Shown here: piece after piece, positions 18,550 to 33,993 of the stretch
How the letters are laid out: each line of letters opens with the position of its first letter
How positions within the stretch are numbered: position 1 is the stretch's first letter
IMG/VR virus record: IMGVR_UViG_3300035168_000171
Span: 1 to 62,152 of that record
Origin: a virus
Taxonomy: Duplodnaviria; Caudoviricetes
Length of the DNA stretch: 62,152 bases
Reading direction: 5' to 3' (one strand)
Made by a program: the position numbers and the translations under genes
The notes under the pieces: model-generated
What the model saw: the letters and a program-made list of their open reading frames with translations, nothing else
What the model was told of the DNA's origin: nothing
The model's database searches: none

Positions 18550-18914
18550 ACGTCGTTGATCGTCACGGCTGGTTGGTGCTCTCTTCTGCTTCAAGTCGGA
18601 AGGAACACGTCGACCTCATACCTCATGACCCGCAGGGGTGCCAGGGCTGTCGCTGGTTTGAGACCCGGCTCAGTCGCAGAGATGATGAGTACCGGGTTGA
18701 GATGATCGGCAGGTCGAGGGTGGAAGGCGAAGTGGATCGCATCCGCGTCGAGTACACCACCTCACCTGGGGCCATCATCGACTACCTCGCAATGGGCGAG
18801 CCCGGTAGGCGGTACATCCCGAAGGTCAGCCGGAAGGTACTCCATGAGGCCGGCGACATCGATGAGGACATCATTGACGCACTCGACGACTTTGACGCGG
18901 TGAATCAGCGATGA
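18546..18914 (+). CDS. Hypothetical protein
   Basis: CQGCRWFE; coupled ORF. Confidence 0.7.
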   Translation: MNVVDRHGWLVLSSASSRKEHVDLIPHDPQGCQGCRWFETRLSRRDDEYRVEMIGRSRVEGEVDRIRVEYTTSPGAIIDYLAMGEPGRRYIPKVSRKVLHEAGDIDEDIIDALDDFDAVNQR

Positions 18915-19516
18915 TCATCCTCCTCGAAGGTCCCGACGGGGCAGGCAAGAGCACCCTTCGCGACGAACTCGTCCGCGTGCACACAGAGGAAGGTCGCGGA
19001 GGCAGCGCCGTCTGGAACCGTGGACCCTTCACGGCAGCGCACGGCCCCTGGGAGGAGTACGTGCAGGACCTCCTTCAATTGACCCCAAACCCAGACTGGC
19101 TCGTCGTGATGGACCGCTGGCACCTCGGCGAGTTGGTGTACGGGCCGATCTTGAGGGGTGCAAGTCGTCTGAGCCTAGCACAGTGTCGCTGGATTGACTC
19201 TCTGCTCCGAGACAGGGGCGCATTGTATGTTCACGTCTATGCACCCAGCCCGACGCTCATGAAGCGTCTCGCGGAGCGCGGCGACGACCTCGTCGACCCG
19301 CACCTCCTGCCGAAGATCAACAATGCGTATTGCGGTCTGTTCCAGGAAGTGTTCTGGATGACCCCGGGTCCGAAGATGAAGACCATCAATACGGATCTCA
19401 ACCGGGTAAGCGCTATCGCGCCAGCCATCCTGGCGTCCGCTCGGATGGAAGCATCTGTCGCAGCGTACCGACCATCGACACCCACCTACGAGGAGATGAA
19501 CCCATGGCCTACATGA
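18911..19516 (+). CDS. dNMP (thymidylate-type) kinase
   Basis: IILLEGPDGAGKST; MDRWHLGELVYG; L.ERGDD. Confidence 0.88.
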   Translation: MIILLEGPDGAGKSTLRDELVRVHTEEGRGGSAVWNRGPFTAAHGPWEEYVQDLLQLTPNPDWLVVMDRWHLGELVYGPILRGASRLSLAQCRWIDSLLRDRGALYVHVYAPSPTLMKRLAERGDDLVDPHLLPKINNAYCGLFQEVFWMTPGPKMKTINTDLNRVSAIAPAILASARMEASVAAYRPSTPTYEEMNPWPT

Positions 19517-20364
19517 CGGACTACGGCGATGACTGGCGCAGCGGGTACATGTCCGTTGTCAGGCGTGTGGAACGATTCTATGACACGCTCACTGCGAGCC
19601 GAGCCGGCGACGTACGCGAGATCGATGACTTTGTCTTCACGCTCGCCCCGGGTGCGATCGATCTTCCACTCGGCGTCGGGCGCAAGATCAACACCAACCT
19701 CGCCGCAGCTGAGGCCCTTCAACTCTGCGCGGGTGTCGAACTGCCCCGTCTCACTGAGGCCGTCGCAGCACAGGTCGCCGGCTACGTCCGAGAGGATGAC
19801 GGTACCGTCCACGGGAATTACGGCGGGCGAGTCAGCCTTCAGATCGCGGACGTCGTCAACAAATTGGACGCCGACCCAACGAGTCGGCAGGCAGTGATTC
19901 AGATTTGGAACAAGAATCTGGATAGTGAGTACCGTCAACCGATGCCCAAGGACATCCCGTGCACGATCGCGCTTACATTCCGCGTCCGGGATGAGTTGCT
20001 CCTCCTCAGCGTCGTCATGCGATCGAGCGACGTCTGGCTCGGTATGCCATTCGACGTGTTCCAATTCCGTCAGCTCCAGCGAACCGTCGCTCACCTCCTC
20101 GGCTACGACATCGGCGAATACTGTCACCATTCAATCTCGATGCACCTCTACGAGAAGGACCTCGAGCGGGCCAGGTCACTCACCTTCGACGACGAGTGGA
20201 AACTCGCCGACCCGTTGCCCGAAGGGATCTTCGCGACTACCGCGCTTGCCCTCCCGTCGACTGCATTCAGCATCCTCAACGGCGTGAATCTCAAGTCGCG
20301 ATCACATCAGTGGTACCACACTCGATTGGGGGCGGCGTGGAAGCAGGTCGAGGCGATCTCATGA
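19504..20364 (+). CDS. Thymidylate synthase superfamily pyrimidine (hydroxy)methylase
   Basis: SRQAVI, catalytic DIPCT, MRSSDVWLGMPFD, SMHLYEKD. Confidence 0.9.
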   Translation: MAYMTDYGDDWRSGYMSVVRRVERFYDTLTASRAGDVREIDDFVFTLAPGAIDLPLGVGRKINTNLAAAEALQLCAGVELPRLTEAVAAQVAGYVREDDGTVHGNYGGRVSLQIADVVNKLDADPTSRQAVIQIWNKNLDSEYRQPMPKDIPCTIALTFRVRDELLLLSVVMRSSDVWLGMPFDVFQFRQLQRTVAHLLGYDIGEYCHHSISMHLYEKDLERARSLTFDDEWKLADPLPEGIFATTALALPSTAFSILNGVNLKSRSHQWYHTRLGAAWKQVEAIS

Positions 20365-20822
20365 CCCGCCCAACCTGGGATGAGGTCTGGCTCCAGGCCG
20401 CGGCCGTTGTCGCCGAGCGCAGCCTCTGCTCGCGGGCGCATGTCGGCGCTGTCATCACGGACTCACGCAATCGCATCATCAGTACGGGGTACAACAATCC
20501 GCCGGCCGGCTTCAATCACGGCAGTATGCCGTGCATCAATTGGTGCCCTCGAGCGAACAAGACGGACGACTTCCATCCTGAGTACGATGACTGCTACGCC
20601 CTTCACGCTGAAGCGAATGCGCTCATAGCAGCCGACCGCTCGACGTGGCAGGGCGGCACCATCTATGTCCTCGGCGACTGTTGTTTCAACTGTGCGAAAC
20701 TGATTGCGAACAGCGGACTTGCGCGAGTCGTCGTGAAGGTCGACCAGACCAGCGATCACCGGCAACCGGCGAAGACATATCGATTCCTGCGCGGACTCAA
20801 CATCGAAGTTGAGGTTGTATGA
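20361..20822 (+). CDS. dCMP deaminase
   Basis: RPTWDE, RSLCSR..VGA, HAEANA, CCFNCAK. Confidence 0.92.
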   Translation: MTRPTWDEVWLQAAAVVAERSLCSRAHVGAVITDSRNRIISTGYNNPPAGFNHGSMPCINWCPRANKTDDFHPEYDDCYALHAEANALIAADRSTWQGGTIYVLGDCCFNCAKLIANSGLARVVVKVDQTSDHRQPAKTYRFLRGLNIEVEVV

Positions 20823-22600
20823 GTTCACTCGCCAACGTCCAACTCCATCTCGTGGATGACCTCGCGACAGCGAATGAGATGATGCGTTGGTTGGGCGAGC
20901 GGCGCGATGGTGGAATTGCCGTCGACACTGAGACTGAGGGGTTGCGCATTGAGCACGACAAAGTCCGACTCGTGCAGATCGGTGATGAAGTGCACGGATG
21001 GGCGATCCCGTGGCAACGGTGGGGCGGTGTATTCCTGGAAGCGATGGACCGGTATGAGGGTCGCCTGATCTTCCACAACCTGAAGTTCGATGTCGGGATG
21101 ATCCGTGCAACCTGCGACTACCAAATGCCACAGGACCGCTGTGACGACACGATGCTGATGGCGCACGCCATCGAACCAAACATGTCCGGCGGCTTGAAAC
21201 AACTCGCCGGTCGGTATGTCGATCCCATGGCGCTCGCTCTTCAGGATCAGTGGAAGAGCAGTACGGGTTGGACGTGGGCGACAGTCCCAGTTGATTACGA
21301 GCCGTATTGGACGTACGCAGCGATGGACACCGTCCTCACTACTCGACTCGCCGCTGTGCTTGCGCCGAAGGTTCGTGAGATGGGCGCTCAGCGAGCATAC
21401 GAACTCGAATTGGCCGCAACCTGGGTCGTTGAGAAGATGGAGCGGAACGGCATCATGGTCGACCGGCCATTCGCCAGTGAGGCGCTCGTATCGTTCCGGT
21501 CATACGCCAAGTCTGTCAGTGATTGGTGCGCTGAACACTACGGCGTCCGGCCGAGTCAGAATGCATCGGTCGCGCAACGACTGATCGCCGACGGTATCCC
21601 GCTTGACAAGACAACCGGCACTGGTGCGGTCCAACTCGACAAGTTCGTGCTCGGTCCGATCGCACACCTACATCCACTCGCAAATGCGGTTCTTGAACAC
21701 CGTCGGTACTCCAAGCTTGCGTCGACGTACCTCCGACACTTTGTTGAAGAGACGTCAGATGAAGATCCGCGACTCCATCCAAGCATCAAGTCGTGTGGCG
21801 CTGTGACGACGCGCATGACGATGAGTGCGCCCAACCTCCAGAATCTGCCACGCTCGTCCGAGGACAATCCGGCTGCAATCACGGTTCGTAAGGCGCTGAT
21901 CGCGTCACCTGATCACACGCTGTTGATGGTCGACTACGACCAGGTCGAGTTGAGGTTCCTCGCTCACGTATCGCAGGACCCCGGGCTGATCGCGGCATTC
22001 ACCGACCCAGACGTCGATGTGTTCACGGCCATCATGCGTGAGTTGTGGGCCGAGCCGACGCTCCAGCGGAAGGACGAGCGCAGGCAGCATACAAAGAATG
22101 CCATGTACGCGATCGGGTATGGTGCCGGTGCCGCCAAGTTCGCGAAGACGGCCGGACTCCCACTCGAATACGGTCAAACGATGTACGCCATGATTGCAGA
22201 CCGGTACCCGATGATGAAGGGCCTCAACCGTGAGATTGAAACTCGGGCTATGCAACGCAAGTCAGCCGAAGGCATCGCCTACGCCCGCTCACCGCTCACT
22301 GGGCAGATACACCCAATGGACCACGACCGGGTGTACACGCTCGTCAACAAACTGGTGCAAGGTGCCGCAGCCGAATTGCTGAAGATGAAGTTGGTTGAAC
22401 TCGACCACGCCGGCTTCGGTCCGTACCTCGTCCTGCCAGTGCATGACGAGATCATCTTCGACATGCCGACGGACCAACTGCCTGAACTCACTCACACTGC
22501 TTGTGACATCATGGCCGACGACCGTCTCATCAATGTCCCCATCACTGTCGCGCCATCGATCGGTCAGTCGTGGGGATCCAAGGAGGATTATGTCCCGTGA
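20819..22600 (+). CDS. polA: DNA polymerase family A (3'-5' exonuclease + polymerase)
   Basis: AVDTET, FHNLKFD, PNLQNLP, DYDQVELR, motif B KNAMYAIGYG, VHDE. Confidence 0.95.
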   Translation: MSSLANVQLHLVDDLATANEMMRWLGERRDGGIAVDTETEGLRIEHDKVRLVQIGDEVHGWAIPWQRWGGVFLEAMDRYEGRLIFHNLKFDVGMIRATCDYQMPQDRCDDTMLMAHAIEPNMSGGLKQLAGRYVDPMALALQDQWKSSTGWTWATVPVDYEPYWTYAAMDTVLTTRLAAVLAPKVREMGAQRAYELELAATWVVEKMERNGIMVDRPFASEALVSFRSYAKSVSDWCAEHYGVRPSQNASVAQRLIADGIPLDKTTGTGAVQLDKFVLGPIAHLHPLANAVLEHRRYSKLASTYLRHFVEETSDEDPRLHPSIKSCGAVTTRMTMSAPNLQNLPRSSEDNPAAITVRKALIASPDHTLLMVDYDQVELRFLAHVSQDPGLIAAFTDPDVDVFTAIMRELWAEPTLQRKDERRQHTKNAMYAIGYGAGAAKFAKTAGLPLEYGQTMYAMIADRYPMMKGLNREIETRAMQRKSAEGIAYARSPLTGQIHPMDHDRVYTLVNKLVQGAAAELLKMKLVELDHAGFGPYLVLPVHDEIIFDMPTDQLPELTHTACDIMADDRLINVPITVAPSIGQSWGSKEDYVP

Positions 22601-22901
22601 TGAACCGCCGTCACATGGCACTCGTTCGAGGTACAACTGGCGATTTGGACCGTGCAATTGCGATGCGTGCACAGCCGCGAACACGGCAGATAAGCGAACT
22701 CGTCGCACTGCCATACGCGCCGGTACTTATGCACCGCGTCCGTATCGACAGCCCAAGCGTCGCATCAAACTCCCGGAGAAGTACATCCTTCTTCCGCCGC
22801 ACGGTACTTATGAGCGGTATCAGTCTCGTCTTTCTCCTTGTCATGATGCATGTTGTCGCGAAGCGAATGCGGCGCACGTGAGAGAGTGGAGAATGGAATG
22901 A
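22590..22901 (+). CDS. Small protein with two HGT...Y...CxCxxC repeats
   Basis: HGTRSRY..CNCDAC and HGTYERY..CHDACC; AGGAGG RBS. Confidence 0.7.
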   Translation: MSRDEPPSHGTRSRYNWRFGPCNCDACTAANTADKRTRRTAIRAGTYAPRPYRQPKRRIKLPEKYILLPPHGTYERYQSRLSPCHDACCREANAAHVREWRME

Positions 22902-23353
22902 CCCTCATCCTCGCTGTTGATCCTGGCAATATGACCGGTTGGGCGTGCATACAGACGACAGATCACTGGTACCCCCAGCATGTCATCGCGGGACAGAATG
23001 AGTCTGATGAATTCCTCGACTGGATCGCAGATGGGTGGAACCTCGACCAGGATCATCTCATGCTCGTTGAGACCTTCACCGTCACTGCCCAGACCGCTCG
23101 TCTCAGTCAGCAACCAGTACCGATGGAAGTCATCGGCGTCCTGAAGTTCCTCGCTCGCCGCTCCAGCGCTCAACTCCAGATGCAGACTCCAGCAGCTGCC
23201 AAACGATTCTGTTCCGACGCCCAACTGCGGAAGATCGGCCTCTGGCAACCCGGCAAGGACCACGCTCGCGACGCCATCCGGCACCTCATCTTGGGAATAG
23301 TTACCCACGGGACTGGACAAGCACGCGAAGAGTTGATACAATCTCTAATATGA
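22898..23353 (+). CDS. RuvC-like Holliday junction resolvase
   Basis: ILAVDPGNMTGWA, VETF, HARDA. Confidence 0.8.
   Translation: MTLILAVDPGNMTGWACIQTTDHWYPQHVIAGQNESDEFLDWIADGWNLDQDHLMLVETFTVTAQTARLSQQPVPMEVIGVLKFLARRSSAQLQMQTPAAAKRFCSDAQLRKIGLWQPGKDHARDAIRHLILGIVTHGTGQAREELIQSLI
23314..23342 (+). promoter_or_regulatory. Promoter P9
   Basis: TGGACA-N17-TACAAT-7nt-ATG (23350). Confidence 0.75.
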
Positions 23354-23375
23354 CGACGACACAGACAGGACGCTG

Positions 23376-25181
23376 ATGCCTCACGTCCACGTCAGACACG
23401 ACACCCCCGCCAAGCGATTGGACGTGTCGTGCGATTGGTCTGACAAAGAACTGATCAAGACGGTGCCTGGCGCCCGCTGGGATGCGAACCGGACGGTCTG
23501 GCACGTACCGATGACTTGGGCTGCTGCCGTGCAGCTCAGAGGTACGTTCGGTCACCGCCTCACGATGGATGACGTCGTAAGGGATTGGGCGCGCGTTCGC
23601 AGAGAAGAGGTCGAGACGGCGCGCAAGTGGCACGACGTCATCGATCCTGGCGTGGAGGTCGAAGGCCTCTACCCTTGGCAGGTCGCTGACTACTACTGGG
23701 CGAACGCCGCCGGCAGCGGGATGTTGCTCGGTAACGATCAGGGAACTGGCAAGACGATGGCCGTCGAGGTCGCTCTCCGCAGTATGGAAGGCGCCCTGCC
23801 CGCCCTCGTCATCTGCCCGAATAGCGTCAAGCGAGTCTGGGAAGCTGAAGCGGCTCGAGCGATGCCGGATGTCAACGTGTACGTCATCGGCGGGGGCGCT
23901 ACTGCTCGACAGAAGACGATCGCTGCCGGACTCGCCGATTCGCGTGGCGTACTCGTCATCAACTACGAATCACTGCGATCTCACTCTAGGCTTGCGCCTT
24001 ACGGCAGCATTCGGTTGAAGCGGTGCCAGGCTTGCGGCGGTGAAGACCCGAAGGTACGCCCCGCTCAGTGTCATAGTCACCACAAGGAACTGAACGGTAC
24101 GGGCGTCATCAAATCGGTCGCGATCGATGAAGCGCACCGTTTGAAGGATCCGAAGAGTCAGCAGACACGAGCCGTGTGGGCAGTCTGTCACGATCCCTCT
24201 GTGACACGTCGGATCGCCATGACCGGCACACCGATCGCGAATCACATCGGCGATCTCTGGTCGATCATGCACGCCGTCGCGCCAGACGAATACCCGACAC
24301 GTTCAGCCTTCCTCGACCGCTACGCACAGATGAGTTGGAACGCCTTCGGTGGACTCGATGTCGTCGGCCTTCGACAGGACCACGCTGCCGAGTTCTATTC
24401 CTTCTTCGACGCCCGGTACCGTCGCATCACCAAGGCGCAGGCTGCACCCTGGCTGCCAGATAAGTACCGCAGCGTCAGGTACGTGTCACTGCCGACAAAG
24501 ATGCTGAAGGCGTACCGGGAACTCGACGAGCAACTCATCACGCGGCTCGATGACGGAACGATCGTCTTCGCATCCAACAACCTCACGCAATCAACACGTC
24601 TCCTCCAGATGTCGTCTGCTTATGGGACAGTTGAGGCCGATGGACGGTACATCCTCACCGAGCCGAGTCCGAAATTGGACGTGATGGAGGAAATCCTTGC
24701 CGAGCGTGAGGGCCGTCCACTCGTTGTCGCGGCACTCAGTCGTCAACTCATCGATCTCGCCGCAAAGCGACTCGAGAAGAGTGGCGTATCGTTTGGCCTG
24801 ATCACGGGCGCCATCCACGAGAGTGACCGGAGACGGAACCTCGATGCCTTCCAAGCAGGCCGGCTCGCGGCGTTGCTGGTGACCATCGGAGCGGGCGGTG
24901 AAGGCCTCACGATGACAGCGGCTGACACCATTCTCTTTCTCCAACGGTCCTGGAGTCTCATCCAGAACTTGCAGATGGAGGACAGGGTGCACCGCATCGG
25001 CAGTGAGATTCATGATGCCATCCACGTCATCGACGTCATCACGGAAGGCACGATTGAGGAGGACCAAATCTTGAGAATACATGACAAGTTGACACGCCTG
25101 GAAGAGGTCCGCCGTGACGGGCTTGACTTCGCTGTCGCCGGGTCCGACGATCTACGAGTAACAGAGAAGAGTACATCATGA
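23376..25181 (+). CDS. SNF2-family DNA helicase
   Basis: DQGTGKT, IDEAHRLK, MTGTPIAN, GEGLTMTAA, QMEDRVHRIG. Confidence 0.93.
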   Translation: MPHVHVRHDTPAKRLDVSCDWSDKELIKTVPGARWDANRTVWHVPMTWAAAVQLRGTFGHRLTMDDVVRDWARVRREEVETARKWHDVIDPGVEVEGLYPWQVADYYWANAAGSGMLLGNDQGTGKTMAVEVALRSMEGALPALVICPNSVKRVWEAEAARAMPDVNVYVIGGGATARQKTIAAGLADSRGVLVINYESLRSHSRLAPYGSIRLKRCQACGGEDPKVRPAQCHSHHKELNGTGVIKSVAIDEAHRLKDPKSQQTRAVWAVCHDPSVTRRIAMTGTPIANHIGDLWSIMHAVAPDEYPTRSAFLDRYAQMSWNAFGGLDVVGLRQDHAAEFYSFFDARYRRITKAQAAPWLPDKYRSVRYVSLPTKMLKAYRELDEQLITRLDDGTIVFASNNLTQSTRLLQMSSAYGTVEADGRYILTEPSPKLDVMEEILAEREGRPLVVAALSRQLIDLAAKRLEKSGVSFGLITGAIHESDRRRNLDAFQAGRLAALLVTIGAGGEGLTMTAADTILFLQRSWSLIQNLQMEDRVHRIGSEIHDAIHVIDVITEGTIEEDQILRIHDKLTRLEEVRRDGLDFAVAGSDDLRVTEKSTS

Positions 25182-25444
25182 ATCACTCCACCACCATCCA
25201 ATGGACGCTCCGCCTCGCGGACGCCGCGCTCATTCATGACACCTTGCGCGACGCCGCCCGCCAGGCCGAGCAGAGCGCCGACTACTTGGAAGGCCCTCGC
25301 TACGCCGAACAAGAGCAGGCCAAACAAATGGCGAAGCCAAAAGAGGAACGGGGCGCACCGTGGACCCTGTCCACGCATGATCTCGAACGCATCGGTGAGA
25401 GCAGAGCCAAGGCCGCCAGACTCTATGACCTTGCCGAGGCGTGA
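25178..25444 (+). CDS. Hypothetical protein
   Basis: ATGA overlap. Confidence 0.65.
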   Translation: MNHSTTIQWTLRLADAALIHDTLRDAARQAEQSADYLEGPRYAEQEQAKQMAKPKEERGAPWTLSTHDLERIGESRAKAARLYDLAEA

Positions 25445-25596
25445 TGGCGAAGGCAGAGATCACCGTCACGGTGAAGGACTTCGACAAGGTCAAGGAGCTG
25501 TTCGAAGCGGCCTCGGCCGTGCTTCCGTACGTACCTCGAGGGCGACGACAGTCACGTCTCGCTCGCGCACTCACGGCCTTCTCGGAGGAGTCATGA
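25444..25596 (+). CDS. Small protein (50 aa)
   Basis: TGATG overlap; MAKAEITVTVKDF. Confidence 0.55.
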   Translation: MAKAEITVTVKDFDKVKELFEAASAVLPYVPRGRRQSRLARALTAFSEES

Positions 25597-26147
25597 TCGT
25601 CGCATTCGACTTCGACGGCACTGTCTGCGACAGCATGGGCGGATTGGAAGACCTCGCCGTGAGTGTCATCCGACGTCACTGGGACATCGCTGACGAAGAT
25701 GTGATCCGGGAACGGTACCGTGAGACGGCGGGCGACCCATTCGACGTACAGTTGCCGCGAATCATGAGTTCCAACGGCCGTGAGGTGAGTATTGCTGCCG
25801 CGGAATACGCCATCGAGAAGATCAACGTAACAATGCAATCAGCACCGAAGTGGAACGTGATCGACGTCATGAGTGACTTGGTCGTTACCGGTGCAGGGGT
25901 TCACGTTATCTCATCCACGACGGCGCCACTGATTCGTATGTGGCTGCGGAAGCACTTCGACAAACTTGAGTATCGCATTCACTGTCACGGCATCGACATG
26001 GGAACGAAAGTCGAGAACCTCACGAGGTGCCAGCCGGACTACTTTGTCGGTGACAGCGTTAGTGATTGCATTCGCGCCGCGCAAGTTGGAGTCAAATTCT
26101 TCCACGTTGACTCAATCGAGGACCTCCTCGCCGAGGTACTGAAGTGA
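25593..26147 (+). CDS. HAD-family phosphatase
   Basis: FDFDGTVCDS, ISS, K, FVGDSVSD. Confidence 0.88.
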   Translation: MIVAFDFDGTVCDSMGGLEDLAVSVIRRHWDIADEDVIRERYRETAGDPFDVQLPRIMSSNGREVSIAAAEYAIEKINVTMQSAPKWNVIDVMSDLVVTGAGVHVISSTTAPLIRMWLRKHFDKLEYRIHCHGIDMGTKVENLTRCQPDYFVGDSVSDCIRAAQVGVKFFHVDSIEDLLAEVLK

Positions 26148-27079
26148 GTGCAGAGGCATACCGCGAACTCTTCGTCGACTTCTGCCGAGCCGAACTCGCG
26201 AGCGGCGGTCCCGATCCGCAGGTGACACTCGTCGGCCGTGCTGTCCGAGAGCGAACGGATCTCGTGCCGGCCGAACAGGCTGTCAGGTGCGGCTTGTTTG
26301 TCGTGCCATACACAGTCGGTGCCGGAGCAGTCCTTTGGAATCTCCGCGATTGGGGGCAGGCAGATTGGGCGTCCTTTCTTATCGAGCACAAGGACGGATT
26401 CCCGATGCGACGTGAGCGTCGGTCGGTCTGGGGCGACGACCGTCGCAAGTTGATGGAGTCCGTCGTGTCATGGATCGACTTCTGCTATCGCGTCCTCCCT
26501 GACGCAGCCGACGGTACGTACGATGAGTTGTACGCGAGCATCGGCAAATACGTGAAGTACTTCGGCAGGTACGCGACGATGAAGGTCATTGAGACGATGC
26601 ACCAGGCCGGCCTTCACGTCCCGGCGCAGTCGTCGATCGTCGCCAAAGGTGCGAAATACCCTCGGAAGATGCTCGCAATGTTATTCCCTGAGCATGCCGA
26701 ACGGATGAACTCGAAAGCGAACGACACCGAGACGATCAAGCTCGCAAATGATCTCGCCTACATGGCGTATCAATTCATCGGCGAGCGCGCAACATGGTTC
26801 CAACTCGAGACCCTCCTCTGTAACGCTAGGCAGGCGCACGATGGTAAGTACCCGGGCCGGAGTCACGATCGCGAGCTCGCGCACTGGCGGAAGGCCAATG
26901 GGTACTTCAGGCGAAAGGGGATGGACCTTCGAGAAGTCATCCCATTCTACGGACTGCGGCAGACGCTGTTCCCGCACGAGTATCTCGGCGAACTTGGCGC
27001 TCCGCCCTGGTGGCAGTCGAGAGAACACCTGGAAGTCGCCCAGAAAGAGAAGGTACGCGGTGCCCTGGCAGATCGATGA
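26144..27079 (+). CDS. Amino acid:DNA transferase-like protein (aGPT-Pplase2, HhH glycosylase fold)
   Basis: GGPDP, RRERR, KYFGRYA, LETLLC...GKYPG motifs. Confidence 0.7.
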   Translation: MSAEAYRELFVDFCRAELASGGPDPQVTLVGRAVRERTDLVPAEQAVRCGLFVVPYTVGAGAVLWNLRDWGQADWASFLIEHKDGFPMRRERRSVWGDDRRKLMESVVSWIDFCYRVLPDAADGTYDELYASIGKYVKYFGRYATMKVIETMHQAGLHVPAQSSIVAKGAKYPRKMLAMLFPEHAERMNSKANDTETIKLANDLAYMAYQFIGERATWFQLETLLCNARQAHDGKYPGRSHDRELAHWRKANGYFRRKGMDLREVIPFYGLRQTLFPHEYLGELGAPPWWQSREHLEVAQKEKVRGALADR

Positions 27080-27476
27080 TCAACTGTGGGTGTGCGGCAC
27101 ACCGACTCTTGAGCAGACTGTTGCGCGCAATTGGACAGCAGGCGTCACGGTTTGCACCAAGTTGCCACCCACTGACGTGCGTAACGTACTTACATGGTGG
27201 CAGCACATTCCCGTGAGAGATGGGAAACGTCTTCAAGTTGATGACTATGTTCGTGCTCGTGATTACGTCCTGGCAATGCTGCAGAACGGACATCGCGTCG
27301 TCATCAACTGTCTTGCCGGCCGTAATCGCTCATGTCTCATCGCCGCTCTCGTCCTGATGGAGCGATATCAAATCGACGGCGCGAGTGCGGCGTACATAGT
27401 ACGTGCTCGCCGACCGAACGCACTTGTCAACCCGGTCCACCTCGAGTGGCTCACGAGTCTGGAGGCTCGAACATGA
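27060..27476 (+). CDS. CX5R (PTP/dual-specificity) phosphatase
   Basis: VVINCLAGRNRS; VRARRP. Confidence 0.85.
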   Translation: MPWQIDDQLWVCGTPTLEQTVARNWTAGVTVCTKLPPTDVRNVLTWWQHIPVRDGKRLQVDDYVRARDYVLAMLQNGHRVVINCLAGRNRSCLIAALVLMERYQIDGASAAYIVRARRPNALVNPVHLEWLTSLEART

Positions 27477-27676
27477 TTGAACGTCAAGCAATGCGCAGCA
27501 CCAAGAAGGAACTCACCGATTGGCTCAACGAGGACGTCGTCGAGTTCGTCATCCGACGTCACAAGCACGACGGCCAGTCATATACCGAGATCGCGGCAGA
27601 ACTGCGCAAGAGCGGATTCTCGGTGACGACGAAGATGCTCGTCAACTGGGTGTATGAGAGCAAGAGGACGAAGTGA
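27473..27676 (+). CDS. Helix-turn-helix DNA-binding protein
   Basis: GQSYTEIAAEL...VTTKMLVNW. Confidence 0.7.
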   Translation: MIERQAMRSTKKELTDWLNEDVVEFVIRRHKHDGQSYTEIAAELRKSGFSVTTKMLVNWVYESKRTK

Positions 27677-27912
27677 TCTCCGACGACGATCGCGAATTAT
27701 GCGGCCCGAGTGTCGACATCTGCGCATGGTGCAGCGATTCCGAGTGTGATGGGATCTCGTGCATCGCATCCCTTGACGTAGAGAATGCTGAGGATCACCC
27801 AGCGATCGAGCAACTCCAGGCATGGATCAGACGTGGTCGTTTCTTCGAGCAAGTTGAGCGAGTTCTTGCGGAATCTGAGAATCGTCCAATCCCTTCAAGG
27901 TGGGGATCATGA
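27673..27912 (+). CDS. Small Cys-rich protein
   Basis: Coupled ORF; CAWC. Confidence 0.55.
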   Translation: MISDDDRELCGPSVDICAWCSDSECDGISCIASLDVENAEDHPAIEQLQAWIRRGRFFEQVERVLAESENRPIPSRWGS

Positions 27913-28679
27913 TCCTCAACATCCGCGGCTCGTCGTGCAGCGGCAAGTCCACCAACCTCTATCGCCTCCTGCAGGACTATCCCTCAGTTGAGGTGTGGGA
28001 GAAGGTCGGCTGGAACAAGGTGAAGCCTCGGCAGGTCGGTCACCTTCTCGCCGGCGGGTTGTTCATCGTCGGTCCGTATGCATCGACAGCAAAGACCGGC
28101 GGGATGGACATGTTGATGCCGGGTAAGACCGAACTCGTCACGAGTTGGCTCGAACGAAATTGCGCGATCTATTCGCATACATGCTTCGAGAGCATGATGG
28201 CGAGCCTGGCGATCGGTCGCTATCACGAACTTCGCAAGCGCCTCGACGTTACGCTCGGCGTCCAGAACAGCATCACATTCGCCTTCCTTGACACACCGCT
28301 CGAGGTCTGTCGTGAGCGCATCCTGTCCAGGAATGACGGGAAGGGACCGACCGGGAAGGGCATCAACGAGGAAGCGACCGTCGATCACCAGTGGAAGCGA
28401 GTCCGACAGATCAGGGAACGCTTCGTTGAGAAGGGCGAGCGGTGCGAAACCCTCCCGTACGAGTCGTCGTATGAGGTGATGATTGCCCTCCTCATGTCCG
28501 GCGGGTGGGACCCCTTCTCGTCACCACCGCCTCAGCACGCCAAGGTCAAGACTCGGGTCTCACTCGAGCAGGTGTACCGCGAAGTCGCGGCTGGTCAATA
28601 CCCTGATGCGGACCCAGATCGCATCCAGCGATTCAAGAATGAAGTCGCGAAACACTCTGAGAAATTCCCACAGGTGTAG
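27909..28679 (+). CDS. P-loop kinase resembling 5-hydroxymethylpyrimidine DNA kinases
   Basis: ILNIRGSSCSGKST, VGPY....GGMD, FLDTPLEVCRERI.SRN. Confidence 0.7.
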   Translation: MILNIRGSSCSGKSTNLYRLLQDYPSVEVWEKVGWNKVKPRQVGHLLAGGLFIVGPYASTAKTGGMDMLMPGKTELVTSWLERNCAIYSHTCFESMMASLAIGRYHELRKRLDVTLGVQNSITFAFLDTPLEVCRERILSRNDGKGPTGKGINEEATVDHQWKRVRQIRERFVEKGERCETLPYESSYEVMIALLMSGGWDPFSSPPPQHAKVKTRVSLEQVYREVAAGQYPDADPDRIQRFKNEVAKHSEKFPQV

Positions 28680-28683
28680 ATAT

Positions 28684-30867: not shown

Positions 30868-31622
30868 GCACAATCGACTTCGGCGCCCTCATGGCCGAGG
30901 CAGGCGAGGGATTCCAGCCGGTTCCATCAGGACCGTACAATGTTCAAGTCTCGAAAGCCGAGGCAGTCACATCATCGACGGGCAAGCCCATGATCAAGGT
31001 GCAACTCAGGATCATCGGCGGACCGCATGACGGCCGACTCCTCTTCGATCAGTTCGTGATCACGGCCGGCAATCCGAATGCTCTTGCATTCTTCTTCGAT
31101 CACATGGCCGCATTCGGACTCGACCGTCCGTGGTTCGCCCAGAACCCGCCGATGGAGACGGTCGCCGCGACACTCATGAACCGGCAAGTCGCCGTCAGCG
31201 TGGGTATCAAGCAGTTCAAGGGCAGTGACCGCAACGAAGTCCAGGCATACAGTGCTATCGCTAGCGGGCAGATCGGCGGCGTCGCACCGACCGGATACGG
31301 TCCTGGCGCCGGTGTTCCGCAAGCCGCTCCAATTCCGCAAGTCGCGGCCCCCGTACCGGTCCCTCAGGCTCCCGTCGCGGCCCCTGTTGCACCTGCCCCC
31401 ATCGCGCCGCAGGTCGTACCTCCGCCGGCCGCGATCGCGCCGCAGGCTCCCGTTGCTCCTCCGGCGCCAGTCGCCCAGGTCCCGCCGCCGGCACCTGTCG
31501 CACCTCCTGCGCCTGTCGCTCCCGTCCAGGAAGTGCCGCAGGCTCCAGTCTCACAGGCTCCCGTTGCTCCGGCACCGGTCCCGGCCGCTCCGTACTCGGC
31601 CAACGACGAAGAGCCGTTCTGA
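30864..31622 (+). CDS. DUF669-like ssDNA-binding protein with Pro/Ala-rich tail
   Basis: PSGPYNV...SSTGKPMIK...RNEV; acidic C-terminus DEEPF. Confidence 0.8.
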   Translation: MSTIDFGALMAEAGEGFQPVPSGPYNVQVSKAEAVTSSTGKPMIKVQLRIIGGPHDGRLLFDQFVITAGNPNALAFFFDHMAAFGLDRPWFAQNPPMETVAATLMNRQVAVSVGIKQFKGSDRNEVQAYSAIASGQIGGVAPTGYGPGAGVPQAAPIPQVAAPVPVPQAPVAAPVAPAPIAPQVVPPPAAIAPQAPVAPPAPVAQVPPPAPVAPPAPVAPVQEVPQAPVSQAPVAPAPVPAAPYSANDEEPF

Positions 31623-32158
31623 TGGCGGCCCCACTCTCGATTGAGGTTCCGATCAGGATCAAGTCACTCGACGTACCGATCAACCTGCAACTCAATGTCA
31701 CCGCGAATCTCGCGGTCGAGATGGAGGCAGATCGGTCCAACTTCGAGGACGTGGGTGACTTCCACCGTAAGTTCGACCTTCACACGAGTGACGACTGTGT
31801 CGGTCCCACCAACATCACAGACGAACTCATCGAGTTCAGAACGCAATTCATGCAAGAAGAGCTTGATGAGTTCATCGACGCCATCAACCGGATGGATCAC
31901 GCCGACGCATTTGATGCCCTCATCGATCTCGTCTATGTCGCGATGGGCACCGCCCACCTCTTCGGCTACCCGTGGCAGGATGGTTGGGACGAAGTCCAAC
32001 GGGCGAACATGACCAAGCAGCGTGCAGCGACAGCAGATCAATCCAAGCGCGCCAGCACCTGGGACGTCGTGAAACCTCCGGATTGGACGCCGCCGGACAT
32101 CGCCGGCGTACTCAAGGAGGCCGGGTTCGATGTGTCATCACTAGAGGAGAGCAAATGA
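31622..32158 (+). CDS. MazG-like nucleotide pyrophosphohydrolase
   Basis: EELDEF, DALIDLVYVAMG, EVQRANMTK, KPPDWTPPD. Confidence 0.88.
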   Translation: MAAPLSIEVPIRIKSLDVPINLQLNVTANLAVEMEADRSNFEDVGDFHRKFDLHTSDDCVGPTNITDELIEFRTQFMQEELDEFIDAINRMDHADAFDALIDLVYVAMGTAHLFGYPWQDGWDEVQRANMTKQRAATADQSKRASTWDVVKPPDWTPPDIAGVLKEAGFDVSSLEESK

Positions 32159-32595: not shown

Positions 32596-32789
32596 ACTTC
32601 GGTAGCTACCGCGTCGTGGGCGTCTATGAGGACACAATCGAGTTGTGGGATGGTGAGTCCAGAATTGAGCCGACTCACCCGGCGCCCGCGACGATGATCT
32701 GCCCTGTCGGCAACCCGCACGCATTCCAAGTCGACGACATCGTGGACCTGGTCGTCGTACTACGAGAACGGAAAGATCCGGATGGTTGA
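32592..32789 (+). CDS. Hypothetical protein
   Basis: ATGA overlap. Confidence 0.55.
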   Translation: MNFGSYRVVGVYEDTIELWDGESRIEPTHPAPATMICPVGNPHAFQVDDIVDLVVVLRERKDPDG

Positions 32790-33993
32790 CTTCATCGCCT
32801 GTCAGAGTTTCGCAGGTGGAATGGACATGGGTGCGACCCTGGCCGGTCTGCGGATGATCCACAAGGTCGAGAACGTTGGCGGGTTCGGTATCCCGAACTG
32901 CGACAAGAACCGGCACCTCCTCGGGTACGACTGGAAGTACCAGGCCGAGGCACCAGCAGGCTGGGAGGTTCTCGACGCAGAGGTCGTACTCGGCAACCCG
33001 CCGTGTAGCGGATTCTCAGTTGCAAGTAACGTGGAGTTCCGCGGTGCCGACAGTCCAATCAACCACTGCATGTGGGACTTCGCCGACTATGTCGCACGAG
33101 TCAAGCCGCAGATCGCCGCGTTCGAGAGTGTCATGCCGGCGTACAGTCGTCCTGACGGTCGCAAGTTGATGGGTGACTTGCGGGAATACCTCGAAGCGAT
33201 CTCGGGCCTCAAGTACGACCTCACGCACGTCAAGCACGACGCAGCAGCCGTTGGTGGACCGTGCACTCGACGTCGGTACTTCTGGGTTGTCCACCGCATA
33301 CCCTTTCGTGTCGATCCGACGCCGGTGACTCTGCAACCGACGTGGGGTGATGCGATCGGTGACCTCGTCGACATGCCAGGTGACAACTGGGAGTTCCAGC
33401 GGTACGGAGCGATTCCGTCGTCGCTGTGGGCGACGCATCGAGTGCGAGGGCTGGCAGGTACGGACGGGCACTGGTCACCGCCACTCACCGACAGGCGTGG
33501 GAGTCGACTCGCCATCCTTCTTGAACAAGAGCCATGGGAGCCTGGCACGAATTACGAAGAGGTCCTCAGACGCAGGACAGTACGGATGGGCGGACATCCT
33601 GGTGAACCGTGGACACCGGATGAGATCGCTCAGCACGAACGACGGGGGTGGACATCCGGGTACTTTCCGACCACGAGATGGAAGTGGGACCGCCCGGGGT
33701 ACGTGATCTACGGCGGCGCGATCGGCAACGTGATTCATCCGTACTTACCAAGACGAATCACGCACCGTGAAGTTGCTCGAGCGATGGGATTCCCAGACAC
33801 CTGGAAGATCGCGCCGCTCGCCGACGATAAAGGCCTCAAGGACTATTGGGGCAAAGGAATCACCGTACAGTGCGGACAGTTCCTCGGAAGGTACATCAAG
33901 CTTGCTGTCGAGGGTGACGTGTCCGAACTCCCGAAAGGTGCATCAGTCGGTGACAGGGAATGGTTCTACGATGTTCGTCCAAGGAGGAAATGA
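32782..33993 (+). CDS. DNA (cytosine-5) methyltransferase
   Basis: FAGG (I), GNPPCSGFS (IV), FESV (VI), RRRYF (VIII), REVARAMGFPD (IX). Confidence 0.88.
   Translation: MVDFIACQSFAGGMDMGATLAGLRMIHKVENVGGFGIPNCDKNRHLLGYDWKYQAEAPAGWEVLDAEVVLGNPPCSGFSVASNVEFRGADSPINHCMWDFADYVARVKPQIAAFESVMPAYSRPDGRKLMGDLREYLEAISGLKYDLTHVKHDAAAVGGPCTRRRYFWVVHRIPFRVDPTPVTLQPTWGDAIGDLVDMPGDNWEFQRYGAIPSSLWATHRVRGLAGTDGHWSPPLTDRRGSRLAILLEQEPWEPGTNYEEVLRRRTVRMGGHPGEPWTPDEIAQHERRGWTSGYFPTTRWKWDRPGYVIYGGAIGNVIHPYLPRRITHREVARAMGFPDTWKIAPLADDKGLKDYWGKGITVQCGQFLGRYIKLAVEGDVSELPKGASVGDREWFYDVRPRRK

What the first reader, a model, noticed from the sequence alone, without database searches (positions are those of the whole stretch)
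18911..28679. Base-hypermodification pathway whose synthase carries the cytosine-specifying Asp
Seen: dNMP kinase, TS-superfamily enzyme and dCMP deaminase (18911-20822); later an amino acid:DNA transferase-like gene (26144) and a P-loop kinase (27909); also a MazG-like pyrophosphatase (31622). The synthase reads MRSSDVWLGMPFD. Established: E. coli ThyA has Asn177 at this position (dUMP) and T4 dCMP hydroxymethylase has Asp179 (dCMP). Characterised kinase/transferase pairs (M6-, ViI-type phages) act on 5-hydroxymethyluracil. Inference: either hm-dCMP is made and deaminated to hm-dUMP (an indirect route to hypermodified T), or the kinase/transferase pair decorates 5hmC, which would be an undescribed cytosine hypermodification. 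A third option is a methyl-dCMP to dTMP route.
Basis: partly seen in the sequence, partly recalled or inferred. Interest (0 to 1): 0.8.

Follow-up and report, generated by a model that had tools for sequence, protein, structure and literature searches.

The report
Hydroxymethylcytosine-type phage DNA hypermodification pathway
This soil phage makes a hydroxymethylated pyrimidine with an enzyme that carries the active-site signature of phage T4's cytosine hydroxymethylase, and it also carries the DNA kinase and transferase that other phages use to decorate thymine, so its DNA probably holds a decorated cytosine that has not been described chemically.

Summary
In detail: all named genes are present and match their families. 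The only thymidylate-synthase homologue (19504-20364) has D-C-D-D at ThyA positions 143/146/169/177. T4 gp42 has the same pattern. The dUMP hydroxymethylases of M6 and Goe9 have D-C-D-N.

- **Pre-replicative cassette:** the synthase lies in a widely conserved block of dNMP kinase, synthase, dCMP deaminase and PolA.
- **Transferase:** 26144-27079 has the PUGT fold (Z 16.7).
- **Kinase:** 27909-28679 is a homologue of M6 gp54.
- **New element:** a CX5R dual-specificity phosphatase follows the transferase in 33 of 35 related loci and is fused to it in some.
- **Likely nucleophile:** 20 of 36 loci place an inositol-1-phosphate synthase just upstream. The attached group in this family is therefore probably inositol or its phosphate, not an amino acid. 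The window lacks that synthase but keeps a HAD phosphatase.

Whether cytosine or thymine is decorated remains open. A complete relative with the Asp-type synthase and the module has no deaminase, which favours 5hmC. The window's coupled deaminase and a conserved C5 methyltransferase keep the indirect thymine route alive.

Earlier notes of this scan reported similar pairings on other DNA. My searches found no paper describing them.

The parts
18911..19516 (+). dNMP (thymidylate-kinase-like, YorR-type) kinase. Inferred to phosphorylate the modified dNMP. Its end overlaps the start of the synthase gene.
   Evidence: phrog_761 E 2.9e-17. Nearest solved structure is YorR 2axp/3kb2, E 7e-5. A homologue lies upstream of the synthase in 77 of 80 related loci.
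19504..20364 (+). Thymidylate-synthase homologue with the T4 gp42-type signature. Predicted dCMP 5-hydroxymethylase.
   Evidence: PF00303 71.8 bits. Best solved match is MilA CMP hydroxymethylase 5b6d, E 3.4e-16. D150/C153/D176/D184 correspond to ThyA 143/146/169/177, identical to T4 gp42, whereas M6 gp58 and Goe9 gp29 have Asn at the last position. 149 of 151 nearest representatives share D-C-D-D. All ThyA equivalog models fall far below their cut-offs (best 69 bits against 327). It is the only TS homologue in the record, and there is no ThyX.
20361..20822 (+). dCMP deaminase, overlapping the synthase stop codon.
   Evidence: PF00383 64.4 bits; phrog_174 E 3.7e-39. Present next to the synthase in 76 of 80 related loci.
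25593..26147 (+). HAD-family phosphatase (DxDxT motif in MIVAFDFDGT), overlapping the transferase start. Inferred inositol-phosphate (or other sugar-phosphate) phosphatase.
   Evidence: PF13419 HAD_2 24.2 bits against cut-off 23.8. GGAGGA lies before the ATG at 25593. Homologues sit between Ino1 and the transferase in L007 and L011.
26144..27079 (+). PUGT-fold (ADDT / aGPT-Pplase2 lineage) DNA transferase. Inferred to replace the phosphate of a 5-phosphomethyl pyrimidine in DNA by a nucleophile.
   Evidence: PF18724 31.0 bits against 26.2. AlphaFold model pLDDT 96.5. VIA-align Z 16.7, rmsd 3.0, 243 residues aligned to PaMx11 gp46/PUGT 8z2n, next fold Z 9.9. The Foldseek top 3 are also PUGT. 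Residues matching PUGT D24, E92, K150, E243, T244 and C247 are present, and W146 is Tyr.
27060..27476 (+). Dual-specificity (CX5R) phosphatase. It starts at GTG 27060 inside the end of the transferase gene and is a conserved partner of the transferase.
   Evidence: PF00782 46.3 bits against 33.5. Asp, Cys and Arg of the active site are invariant in 16 of 16 aligned homologues. It lies directly downstream of the transferase in 33 of 35 loci and is fused in L032/L033. Fused database proteins are P0040, P0047 and P0073. Start codon and GAGAAGG seen.
27909..28679 (+). P-loop DNA kinase of the 5-HMUDK lineage (ORF opens at GTG 27900; probable start ATG 27909).
   Evidence: PF18748 21 bits against 27 for the window protein, but 16 of 19 family members match at E<=0.01. 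tblastn to M6 gp54: 28% identity over 79% of the query, E 8e-8. Walker A motif GSSCSGKST. The model has a generic NMP/polynucleotide-kinase fold. Present in 24 of 35 loci.
31622..32158 (+). MazG-like nucleotide pyrophosphohydrolase. Inferred to prune an unwanted dNTP; which one is unknown.
   Evidence: PF01503 59.9 bits. Nearest solved structure is DR2231, E 1.5e-5. Syntenic MazG-like gene in DSL-LC01.
32782..33993 (+). C5 cytosine DNA methyltransferase homologue. Associated with Asp-type synthases in phages that carry the module; its role in the pathway is unresolved.
   Evidence: PF00145 62.7 bits. The family is present in 5 of 5 other records with an Asp-type synthase plus the module and in 0 of 5 with an Asn-type synthase. 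It lies inside the cluster in L011 and L035. Motifs NPPC, E-S-V and R-x-R seen.

Best explanation
This is a two-stage pathway that builds a hypermodified cytosine.

**Before replication (inferred from signatures).**
- The T4 gp42-like synthase converts dCMP to 5-hydroxymethyl-dCMP.
- The adjacent YorR-type dNMP kinase, together with host NDP kinase, raises it to the triphosphate.
- The phage PolA incorporates 5hmC, possibly replacing only part of the cytosines.
- As in T4, the deaminase mainly feeds dUMP to the host's dTMP synthesis.

**After replication (inferred by homology to M6, ViI and PaMx11).**
- The gp54-like kinase phosphorylates the 5-hydroxymethyl group in DNA.
- The PUGT-fold transferase flips the base out and displaces the phosphate with a nucleophile.
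- In this transferase clade the nucleophile is most likely myo-inositol or inositol phosphate. Relatives encode their own inositol-1-phosphate synthase. This phage lacks it and would draw on the inositol phosphate of a presumed actinobacterial host, using its HAD phosphatase.
- The tightly coupled CX5R phosphatase either trims the phosphate of the attached or incoming inositol phosphate, or clears unreacted 5-phosphomethyl bases. This step is the least certain.

The result would protect the DNA from host nucleases.
For: **Synthase**
- D-C-D-D at ThyA 143/146/169/177, the same as T4 gp42. The dUMP hydroxymethylases M6 gp58 and Goe9 gp29 have D-C-D-N.
- The residue rules (N177D for dCMP, L143D/E for hydroxymethyl, D169N for 5-hydroxy-dCMP) were read in PMC13326640 sections 24 and 28.
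- The best solved match is MilA.
- 149 of 151 nearest representatives share the signature.
- There is one TS homologue and no ThyX in the record, which is 85% complete.

**No deaminase in some relatives**
- Record G002 (L011) is 100% complete and carries C5MT-Ino1-HAD-transferase-DSP-kinase-kinase-like-TS(Asp) in one cluster.
- It has a single TS homologue and matches neither PF00383 nor TIGR02274.
- The same holds for G001 (L035, 83% complete).

**The deaminase is ancestral to the cassette**
- It lies next to the Asp-type synthase in 76 of 80 related loci, whatever the downstream modification genes are.

**Module membership**
- Transferase: Z 16.7 to PUGT.
- Kinase: homologous to M6 gp54.
- DSP: adjacent in 33 of 35 loci and sometimes fused.

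**Inositol link**
- PF01658 scores 123 bits in L011 and L035.
- Homologues lie 1-2 kb upstream of the transferase in 20 of 36 loci.
- The control genome Corynebacterium glutamicum has the family.
- The nearest cultured relatives of the synthase infect Gordonia.

**Transferase pocket**
- All 7 transferases paired with an Asp-type synthase have Glu at the PUGT E243 position.
- Gln occurs there in 4 of 12 Asn-type partners.
Against: - The window's deaminase is translationally coupled to the synthase, and dCMP deaminases of other systems accept 5-substituted dCMP (recalled, not tested). hm-dCMP could therefore be converted to hm-dUMP.
- All characterised ADDT and 5-HMUDK enzymes act on 5hmU. In the PUGT crystal a metal held by E243 and T244 contacts thymine O4, and the window keeps Glu-Thr at the matching positions.
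- The transferase tree does not follow the synthase type. L035 (Asp-type) nests among Asn-type partners with 100/99 support, and no alignment column separates the two groups.
- A conserved C5 cytosine methyltransferase implies that at least some cytosines keep a free C5.
- The nearest solved relative of the MazG-like protein is DR2231, which I recall as a dUTPase. This gives no sign of a dCTPase.
- The window has no inositol-phosphate synthase, so the inositol reading rests on relatives.
- There are no chemical data for any phage of this group. The sequencing runs that hold this DNA are kept only as assembled contigs.
Confidence: 0.5

Rival explanations
1. Indirect route to a hypermodified thymine. 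The Asp-type synthase makes hm-dCMP, and the coupled deaminase converts it to hm-dUMP. 5hmU enters the DNA, and the kinase, transferase and phosphatase act on 5hmU as in M6, ViI and PaMx11. Cytosines stay canonical and are methylated at some sites by the C5 methyltransferase.
For: - The synthase and deaminase genes overlap (19504-20364 and 20361-20822).
- The kinase is homologous to M6 gp54, which acts on 5hmU-DNA (PMC8989533 passages).
- The transferase keeps the Glu-Thr pair that holds the metal on thymine O4 in PUGT.
- The same Ino1-transferase-DSP-kinase module occurs with Asn-type (dUMP) hydroxymethylases in 12 loci, so 5hmU is a proven context for this clade.
- A C5 methyltransferase is conserved in all 6 Asp-type records.
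Against: - G002 (100% complete) and G001 have the Asp-type synthase and the module but no dCMP or dCTP deaminase family member.
- The deaminase is ancestral to the cassette, present in 76 of 80 loci. It also coexists with a dCMP hydroxymethylase in T4 (recalled).
- No phage is known to make hm-dUMP this way. My literature searches did not address this route.
Confidence: 0.3
2. Both pyrimidines are targets. The module accepts any 5-hydroxymethylpyrimidine in DNA. Because some hm-dCMP is deaminated, the DNA carries both 5hmC- and 5hmU-derived adducts.
For: - The transferase clade switches between Asp- and Asn-type synthase partners at least twice.
- In the PUGT complex the enzyme contacts mainly the DNA backbone.
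- The window encodes both the Asp-type synthase and the deaminase.
Against: - There is no precedent, and nothing here was tested directly.
- A dual product would need the dNMP kinase and the polymerase to accept both nucleotides.
Confidence: 0.12
3. There is no hypermodification of a hydroxymethyl base. The synthase is a dCMP methylase (5m-dCMP, then dTMP by the deaminase) or an ordinary thymidylate synthase. The kinase, transferase and phosphatases then serve an unrelated function.
For: - N177D variants of thymidylate synthase methylate dCMP. PDB 1njc, the third-ranked match, I recall as the L. casei N229D variant with dCMP; the N177D rule itself is cited in PMC13326640 section 24.
- The window's own kinase score is below the Pfam cut-off.
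Against: - The ThyA-L143 position is Asp, as in T4 gp42, M6 gp58 and Goe9 gp29.
- All ThyA equivalog models are missed by a wide margin.
- The transferase fold and active-site residues match PUGT.
- The module is linked to hydroxymethylase-type synthases in 18 of 18 loci where a synthase is in range.
Confidence: 0.05

Closest known systems
Thymidine hypermodification pathways of Pseudomonas phages M6 and PaMx11 and Salmonella phage ViI (dUMP hydroxymethylase, 5-HMUDK kinase, amino acid:DNA transferase / PUGT)
   Same: - Two-stage logic: a TS-fold hydroxymethylase acts before replication.
- A P-loop DNA kinase homologous to M6 gp54.
- A PUGT-fold transferase (Z 16.7) with the same catalytic residues.
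   Different: - The synthase has Asp, not Asn, at the base-specifying position.
- No PLP decarboxylase, radical SAM enzyme, FAD lyase or acetyltransferase was seen in the ORFs I scanned.
- A CX5R phosphatase is an obligatory partner in 33 of 35 loci, and a HAD phosphatase is present.
- The clade is linked to inositol-1-phosphate synthase.
- PUGT W146 is replaced by Tyr.
- The protein matches only the C-terminal half of the Pfam ADDT profile and has no tblastn match in 50,697 phage records.
T4 pre-replicative hydroxymethylcytosine pathway (gp42 dCMP hydroxymethylase, gp1 dNMP kinase, cd dCMP deaminase, gp56 dCTPase, glucosyltransferases)
   Same: - The same active-site signature as gp42.
- A dNMP kinase, a dCMP deaminase and an all-alpha NTP pyrophosphatase are encoded alongside.
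   Different: - Only 20-30% identity outside the active site. T4 gp42 was not among the top PDB hits.
- The kinase is YorR/thymidylate-kinase-like rather than gp1-like.
- No glycosyltransferase lies in the replication module. Decoration would go through phosphorylation and substitution instead.
- A C5 methyltransferase is present.
Actinomycetia phage DSL-LC01 (metagenome-assembled) and Gordonia phages Sixama, GodonK and GMA2
   Same: - Same gene order of kinase, Asp-type synthase, deaminase, PolA, RuvC and helicase.
- Same D-C-D-D signature.
- DSL-LC01 also has a MazG-like gene and a C5 methyltransferase downstream.
   Different: - They lack the transferase-DSP-kinase module.
- DSL-LC01 instead has genes annotated as glycosyltransferase and UDP-galactopyranose mutase.
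- No base analysis of these phages was found (passages of PMC4524720).
MilA CMP 5-hydroxymethylase (PDB 5b6d)
   Same: Best solved sequence match (E 3.4e-16), with Asp at both the 143 and 177 equivalents (PMC13326640 section 24).
   Different: MilA acts on the ribonucleotide in an antibiotic pathway. The residues said to select ribose were not examined here.

Membership tests
Thymidylate synthase superfamily (PF00303) | Profile match above the gathering score | tested here: met
   71.8 bits against 24.3, covering residues 109-224.
Canonical thymidylate synthase ThyA (NCBIfam equivalogs) | Score above the equivalog cut-off | tested here: not met
   The best model scores 69.1 bits against a cut-off of 327. 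Eight models matched and all are far below their cut-offs.
dCMP hydroxymethylase (T4 gp42 class) | Catalytic Cys at ThyA 146 | tested here: met
   C153 in DIPCT aligns with the Cys of T4 gp42.
dCMP hydroxymethylase (T4 gp42 class) | Asp instead of Asn at ThyA 177 (cytosine specificity) | tested here: met
   D184 aligns with the Asp of T4 gp42, whereas M6 gp58 and Goe9 gp29 have Asn. The rule was read in PMC13326640 section 24.
dCMP hydroxymethylase (T4 gp42 class) | Acidic residue at ThyA 143 (hydroxymethyl rather than methyl product) | tested here: met
   D150, the same as T4 gp42, M6 gp58 and Goe9 gp29. The rule was read.
dCMP hydroxymethylase (T4 gp42 class) | Enzyme converts dCMP and methylene-tetrahydrofolate to hm-dCMP | not testable with these tools
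   Needs an enzyme assay.
5-hydroxy-dCMP synthase (RB69 gp48 class) | Asn at ThyA 169 (D169N) | tested here: not met
   The window has D176 in MRSSD. The rule was read in PMC13326640 section 28.
Amino acid:DNA transferase (PF18724 ADDT / aGPT-Pplase2; PUGT) | Profile match above the gathering score | tested here: met
   31.0 bits against 26.2, but only profile positions 115-229 of 232 are matched. A profile of 33 relatives hits PDB 25qc, an ADDT-domain protein, at E 0.006.
Amino acid:DNA transferase (PF18724 ADDT / aGPT-Pplase2; PUGT) | Two-helix-bundle PUGT fold | tested here: met
   Model pLDDT 96.5. VIA-align Z 16.7, rmsd 3.0, 243 residues aligned to 8z2n_B; the next fold (Ogg) scores Z 9.9. 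The Foldseek top 3 are PUGT, E 4e-3, TM 0.53-0.57.
Amino acid:DNA transferase (PF18724 ADDT / aGPT-Pplase2; PUGT) | Active-site residues of PUGT (D24, E92, W146, K150, E243, T244, C247) | tested here: met
   D24, E91, K147, E222, T223 and C226 are present, and W146 is replaced by Y143. D24, E91, Y143, K147 and C226 are invariant in 33 sequences.
Amino acid:DNA transferase (PF18724 ADDT / aGPT-Pplase2; PUGT) | Nucleophile is an amino acid and substrate is 5-phosphomethyl-dU in DNA | not testable with these tools
   Doubt comes from gene context: an Asp-type synthase partner and Ino1 upstream in 20 of 36 loci.
5-hmdU DNA kinase (PF18748; M6 gp54) | Profile match above the gathering score | tested here: not met
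   The window protein scores 21 bits against 27. 16 of 19 aligned family members match at E<=0.01, best 2.2e-7.
5-hmdU DNA kinase (PF18748; M6 gp54) | Homology to an experimentally characterised member | tested here: met
   tblastn to Pseudomonas phage M6 41694-42269, which is PPM6_gp054: 28% identity over 79% of the query, E 8e-8. The gp54 activity was read in PMC8989533.
5-hmdU DNA kinase (PF18748; M6 gp54) | Phosphorylates the 5-hydroxymethyl group of a pyrimidine in DNA | not testable with these tools
   The fold search gives only generic P-loop NMP/polynucleotide kinases. No HMUDK structure was among the matches.
Dual-specificity phosphatase (PF00782) | Profile match and the CX5R plus general-acid Asp active site | tested here: met
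   46.3 bits against 33.5. D54, C84 and R90 are invariant in 16 of 16 homologues.
dCMP deaminase (PF00383) | Profile match above the cut-off, with HAE and CxxC zinc motifs | tested here: met
   64.4 bits against 25. HAEANAL and CFNC are seen in the translation.
C5 cytosine DNA methyltransferase (PF00145) | Profile match, PC catalytic motif and ENV motif | tested here: inconclusive
   62.7 bits against 22, and NPPC is present, but the ENV motif reads ESV (ECV in DSL-LC01). Activity is unknown.

The most novel reading that the evidence does not exclude
This would be a natural non-glycosyl hypermodification of cytosine. 5hmC in DNA is phosphorylated by a gp54-like kinase. A PUGT-fold transferase then couples it to myo-inositol (or its phosphate), working with a dedicated CX5R phosphatase, to give an inositol-bearing cytosine.

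The same portable Ino1-transferase-phosphatase-kinase module serves hydroxymethyluracil phages and hydroxymethylcytosine phages alike. In the cytosine lineages it recruits a C5-methyltransferase homologue that may take part in the chemistry rather than simply methylate DNA.
Probability: 0.35. Interest if true: 0.85.

Novelty: new variant of a known kind. Interest (0 to 1): 0.72.

Why it matters
All kinase-and-transferase DNA hypermodifications characterised so far start from 5-hydroxymethyluracil. Known decorations of hydroxymethylcytosine are sugars, plus a carbamoyl group (the latter recalled, not read here).

A phosphorylation-substitution route on cytosine, or an inositol adduct on either pyrimidine, would add a new class of natural DNA base. 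It would also add a new enzyme trio (kinase, transferase, CX5R phosphatase) for site-directed DNA derivatisation, and a new target class for modification-dependent restriction systems.

The comparative result is testable with cloned genes:
- The module appears with both synthase types.
- The Asp-type synthase cassette is very widespread, with at least 588 relatives in IMG/VR.
- Most of these phages probably carry some still-unknown derivative of hydroxymethylcytosine.

Tried and rejected
- **Megablast** of 18911-28679 against 50,697 phage records found no match. tblastn of the transferase found no match at E<=1e-3. No annotated close relative could therefore be used.
- **Specificity-determining positions.** I compared transferases paired with Asp-type and Asn-type synthases. 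No column separates the groups, and the tree needs at least 2 switches. Of 36 rows, 28 were used; I dropped duplicates L002, L004, L005, L009, L020 and L033 and fragments L013 and L034.
- **Kinase fold search.** It returned only generic P-loop kinases, so it says nothing about substrate.
- **NCBIfam.** No model reached its cut-off for any of 9 proteins.
- **Complex prediction** of transferase plus DSP, using alignments A1 and A4: verdict 'no answer', score 0.00 against the mark of 0.32. This is no evidence either way.
- **The look-up of sequencing runs.** It listed 14 soil-metagenome runs, all kept as Logan contigs. Contigs cannot show base modification.
I used the search for related loci instead.
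- **Literature searches.**
  - 'Dual specificity phosphatase' occurred in none of the 15 hypermodification papers listed.
  - The terms 5-PmdC, phosphomethylcytosine, 5hmC kinase and the like gave one unrelated paper.
  - Inositol with hypermodification, 5-hmdU or aGPT-Pplase gave no paper linking them.
The contig maps and tables of PMC8989533 (Figure 2 and supplements) may show clusters with the phosphatase or Ino1 that I could not see.
- **Methyl-dCMP to dTMP reading.** I considered and rejected it because position 143 is Asp and ThyA equivalog scores fail.
- **5-hydroxy-dCMP synthase reading.** I rejected it because D169 is retained.
- **DSL-LC01 'glycosyltransferase'.** A homologue occurs in 41 of 80 loci, but the gene has no Pfam glycosyltransferase match. 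That label is the depositor's only.

Full report
**What the window is.** The window is a complete IMG/VR virus record of 62,152 bases. It is linear, and CheckV estimates 85% completeness. GC content is about 60%. Eleven soil-metagenome runs hold at least 76% of the sampled words of 19000-28600, but only as assembled contigs. No annotated phage is close at the DNA level. The nearest cultured relatives of its synthase infect Gordonia, so an actinobacterial host is an inference.

**Observation.**
- 18911-19516 is a thymidylate-kinase-like P-loop kinase (phrog_761 E 2.9e-17).
- 19504-20364 is a thymidylate-synthase-fold protein (PF00303, 71.8 bits).
- 20361-20822 is a dCMP deaminase (PF00383, 64.4 bits).
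- 26144-27079 matches PF18724 ADDT above its cut-off (31.0 against 26.2 bits), although only over the C-terminal half of the profile.
- 27900/27909-28679 is a P-loop kinase. Its own PF18748 score (21 bits) is below the cut-off of 27.
- 31622-32158 is MazG-like (PF01503).

The same stretch also holds a HAD phosphatase (25593-26147) and a CX5R dual-specificity phosphatase (27060-27476; PF00782, 46.3 bits). A C5 cytosine methyltransferase lies at 32782-33993. HAD, transferase and phosphatase overlap one another, each with its own ribosome-binding site.

**The synthase.** PMC13326640 (sections 24 and 28 read) gives residue rules in E. coli ThyA numbering:
- C146 is the nucleophile.
- N177 selects dUMP, and Asp there selects dCMP.
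- L143 is hydrophobic in methylases and Asp or Glu in hydroxymethylases.
- D169N marks 5-hydroxy-dCMP synthases.

I aligned the window protein with reference enzymes taken from public records.
- The window, T4 gp42, DSL-LC01 and Gordonia phage Sixama all read D-C-D-D at 143/146/169/177.
- The dUMP hydroxymethylases M6 gp58 and Goe9 gp29 read D-C-D-N.
- Two further positions co-vary in the same alignment: Thr against Asn after the Cys, and Met against Asn before Arg-Ser.

Other results agree.
- The best solved match is MilA, a CMP hydroxymethylase (E 3.4e-16).
- Every NCBIfam ThyA equivalog is missed by a wide margin.
- Of the 150 best representatives among 8,440 hits, plus the window, 149 of 151 read D-C-D-D and all have the Asp at 177.
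- The record holds one TS homologue and no ThyX.

I therefore read this enzyme as a dCMP hydroxymethylase. This is a prediction from signature residues, not a measured activity.

**The pre-replicative cassette is old and common.** IMG/VR holds at least 588 relatives of this synthase clade. In the 80 closest loci:
- all 80 read D-C-D-D;
- 77 have the kinase upstream;
- 76 have the deaminase downstream;
- 77 have PolA next.

DSL-LC01 and Sixama show the same order. The overlap of synthase and deaminase in the window is therefore inherited with the cassette. It is not a special feature of phages that own a transferase. Only 3 of the 80 loci have the transferase: two lie on the same contigs as L003/L004, and the third is L114. 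In 41 of the 80 there is instead a homologue of a DSL-LC01 gene that its depositors call a glycosyltransferase. Pfam does not confirm that label.

**The post-replicative module.**
- *Transferase.* The transferase family has 76 database relatives. A model built on 33 of them is very confident (pLDDT 96.5). Its best structural matches are the PaMx11 gp46/PUGT crystal structures: Foldseek ranks 1-3, and VIA-align Z 16.7, rmsd 3.0 over 243 residues, against Z 9.9 for the next fold. The residues that PMC11472151 (Results part 1 read) places in the PUGT active site have counterparts here: D24, E91, K147, E222-T223 and C226. W146 is replaced by Y143.
- *Kinase.* It aligns with M6 gp54, the characterised 5-hmdU DNA kinase (28% identity over 79% of the query, E 8e-8). 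The M6 record mislabels that gene as small terminase. Sixteen of 19 family members match PF18748 at E<=0.01.
- *Phosphatase (new relative to the published pathways).* In 35 IMG/VR loci that encode the transferase, the CX5R phosphatase follows it directly in 33. One of the two exceptions ends 260 bases after the transferase. Phosphatase and transferase are one reading frame in L032/L033. Three database proteins also combine both domains. Its Asp, Cys and Arg are invariant in 16 of 16 sequences.
- The kinase is present in 24 of the 35 loci.

**The inositol link.** Pfam scans of genes flanking the module in L011 and L035 found myo-inositol-1-phosphate synthase directly upstream (123 bits). Homologues lie 1-2 kb upstream of the transferase in 20 of 36 loci, with either type of synthase.

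In L007 and L011 a HAD phosphatase homologous to the window's sits between that gene and the transferase. The window and its nearest relatives (L001-L006, L013) lack the inositol-phosphate synthase; the window and L001-L005 keep the HAD gene.

My inference is that this transferase clade attaches inositol or inositol phosphate rather than an amino acid. A phage of an inositol-rich actinobacterium could then dispense with its own synthase. The role of the CX5R phosphatase is the weakest point. It may trim a phosphate from the incoming or attached inositol phosphate, or it may remove unreacted 5-phosphomethyl groups.

**Cytosine or thymine?**

*For cytosine:*
- The synthase signature points to dCMP.
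- G002, the genome of L011, is 92 kb and 100% complete. It holds C5MT-Ino1-HAD-transferase-phosphatase-kinase-kinase-like-synthase(Asp) as one cluster. It has a single TS homologue and no member of the dCMP-deaminase or dCTP-deaminase families.
- G001 (L035, 83% complete) is the same.
- In those phages a 5hmU substrate would need a host deaminase.

*For thymine:*
- The window's deaminase is coupled to the synthase.
- Every characterised kinase and transferase of these families acts on 5hmU.
- In PUGT a metal bound by Glu-Thr touches thymine O4, and the window keeps Glu-Thr.
- The transferase tree does not track the synthase type. The window sits in a 99/99-supported clade with only Asp-type or unknown partners, but L035 nests among Asn-type partners with 100/99 support.
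- No alignment column separates the groups.

The module seems to move between hydroxymethyluracil and hydroxymethylcytosine phages. I put the cytosine reading at about 0.5, the indirect thymine route at 0.3, a mixed outcome at about 0.1, and everything else at 0.05.

**An unexplained correlate.** A C5 cytosine methyltransferase homologue is present in the window and in 5 of 5 other records that combine an Asp-type synthase with the module. It is absent from 5 of 5 records with an Asn-type synthase.
- In L011 and L035 it lies inside the cluster.
- GC content ranges overlap between the groups.
- The homologues keep NPPC and the Arg motif but read E-S-V or E-C-V where the family has E-N-V.
- The sample is small and partly related by descent.

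If real, the correlation means one of three things: replacement of C is partial, C stays canonical, or the homologue has a role on 5-substituted cytosine.

**Comparison with what is known, and novelty.** The activation chemistry is that of the M6, ViI and PaMx11 thymidine pathways. The precursor enzyme is of the T4 gp42 class. Neither family membership is in doubt at the fold level, but the substrate base and the nucleophile are untested.

In the open-access library:
- 'Dual specificity phosphatase' occurs in none of the 15 hypermodification papers listed.
- No relevant paper was found for phosphorylated hydroxymethylcytosine.
- No paper connects inositol with these enzymes.
- Supplements were closed, and subscription journals are not covered.

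Earlier AI notes of this scan report similar pairings on other genomes: T4-like marine phages and an 80-kb soil phage with Ino1 in a thymine-type operon. A note on this genome describes the transferase between two phosphatases. These are leads, not evidence. What I tested myself agrees with them.

I rate this a new variant of a known kind of system.

**Limits.**
- Nothing here is a measurement of chemistry.
- The complex prediction gave no verdict.
- Only contigs of the sequencing runs were available.

Noticed in passing
window 32782-33993; L011 7094-8248; L035 12386-13477: A C5 cytosine methyltransferase homologue accompanies the Asp-type synthase in all 6 records with the transferase module. 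It is absent from 5 of 5 records with an Asn-type synthase. In two relatives it lies inside the modification cluster. Its ENV motif reads ESV.
   Followed up: partly
L011 8307-9374; L035 8363-9442; 20 of 36 transferase loci: A myo-inositol-1-phosphate synthase lies directly upstream of the transferase-phosphatase-kinase module, with either synthase type. The window itself has none.
   Followed up: partly
L035 15558-16133: A nucleoside 2-deoxyribosyltransferase-like gene lies right after the Asp-type synthase. The pairing recalls MilA/MilB of mildiomycin biosynthesis (recalled from memory). It could hydrolyse a dNMP.
   Followed up: no
NC_007809.1 41685-42248 (L120 3492-4055): M6 gp54, the characterised 5-hmdU DNA kinase, is annotated 'terminase small subunit' in the RefSeq record. 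PHROGs family phrog_800 carries the same label, which mislabels the window's kinase.
   Followed up: yes
window 28681-29154: An HNH/NUMOD3 homing-endonuclease-like ORF sits between the DNA kinase and the PD-(D/E)XK exonuclease. In relatives L001-L005 its homologue lies after the exonuclease instead.
   Followed up: no
L042-L118 (41 of 80 loci), about 8 kb downstream of the synthase: Most phages with the same Asp-type cassette carry a homologue of the DSL-LC01 gene annotated as glycosyltransferase, followed by a conserved hypothetical gene. Pfam finds no glycosyltransferase family in it. In DSL-LC01 it lies next to a gene annotated UDP-galactopyranose mutase.
   Followed up: partly
window 31622-32158 and 18911-19516: The MazG-like protein is closest to Deinococcus DR2231 among solved structures. 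The dNMP kinase is closest to YorR (3kb2), the same PDB hit that PMC13326640 Table 1 lists for the nucleotide kinase next to the DLP3 5-hydroxy-dCMP synthase.
   Followed up: no
window 7753-10107 (-), 959-2611 (-), 34754-35716 (-): A primase-polymerase/D5-type helicase, a T4-type large terminase and a VanY-type peptidase were identified while scanning the rest of the record. No PLP, radical SAM, FAD or acetyltransferase tailoring enzyme appeared among the 10 ORFs scanned.
   Followed up: partly
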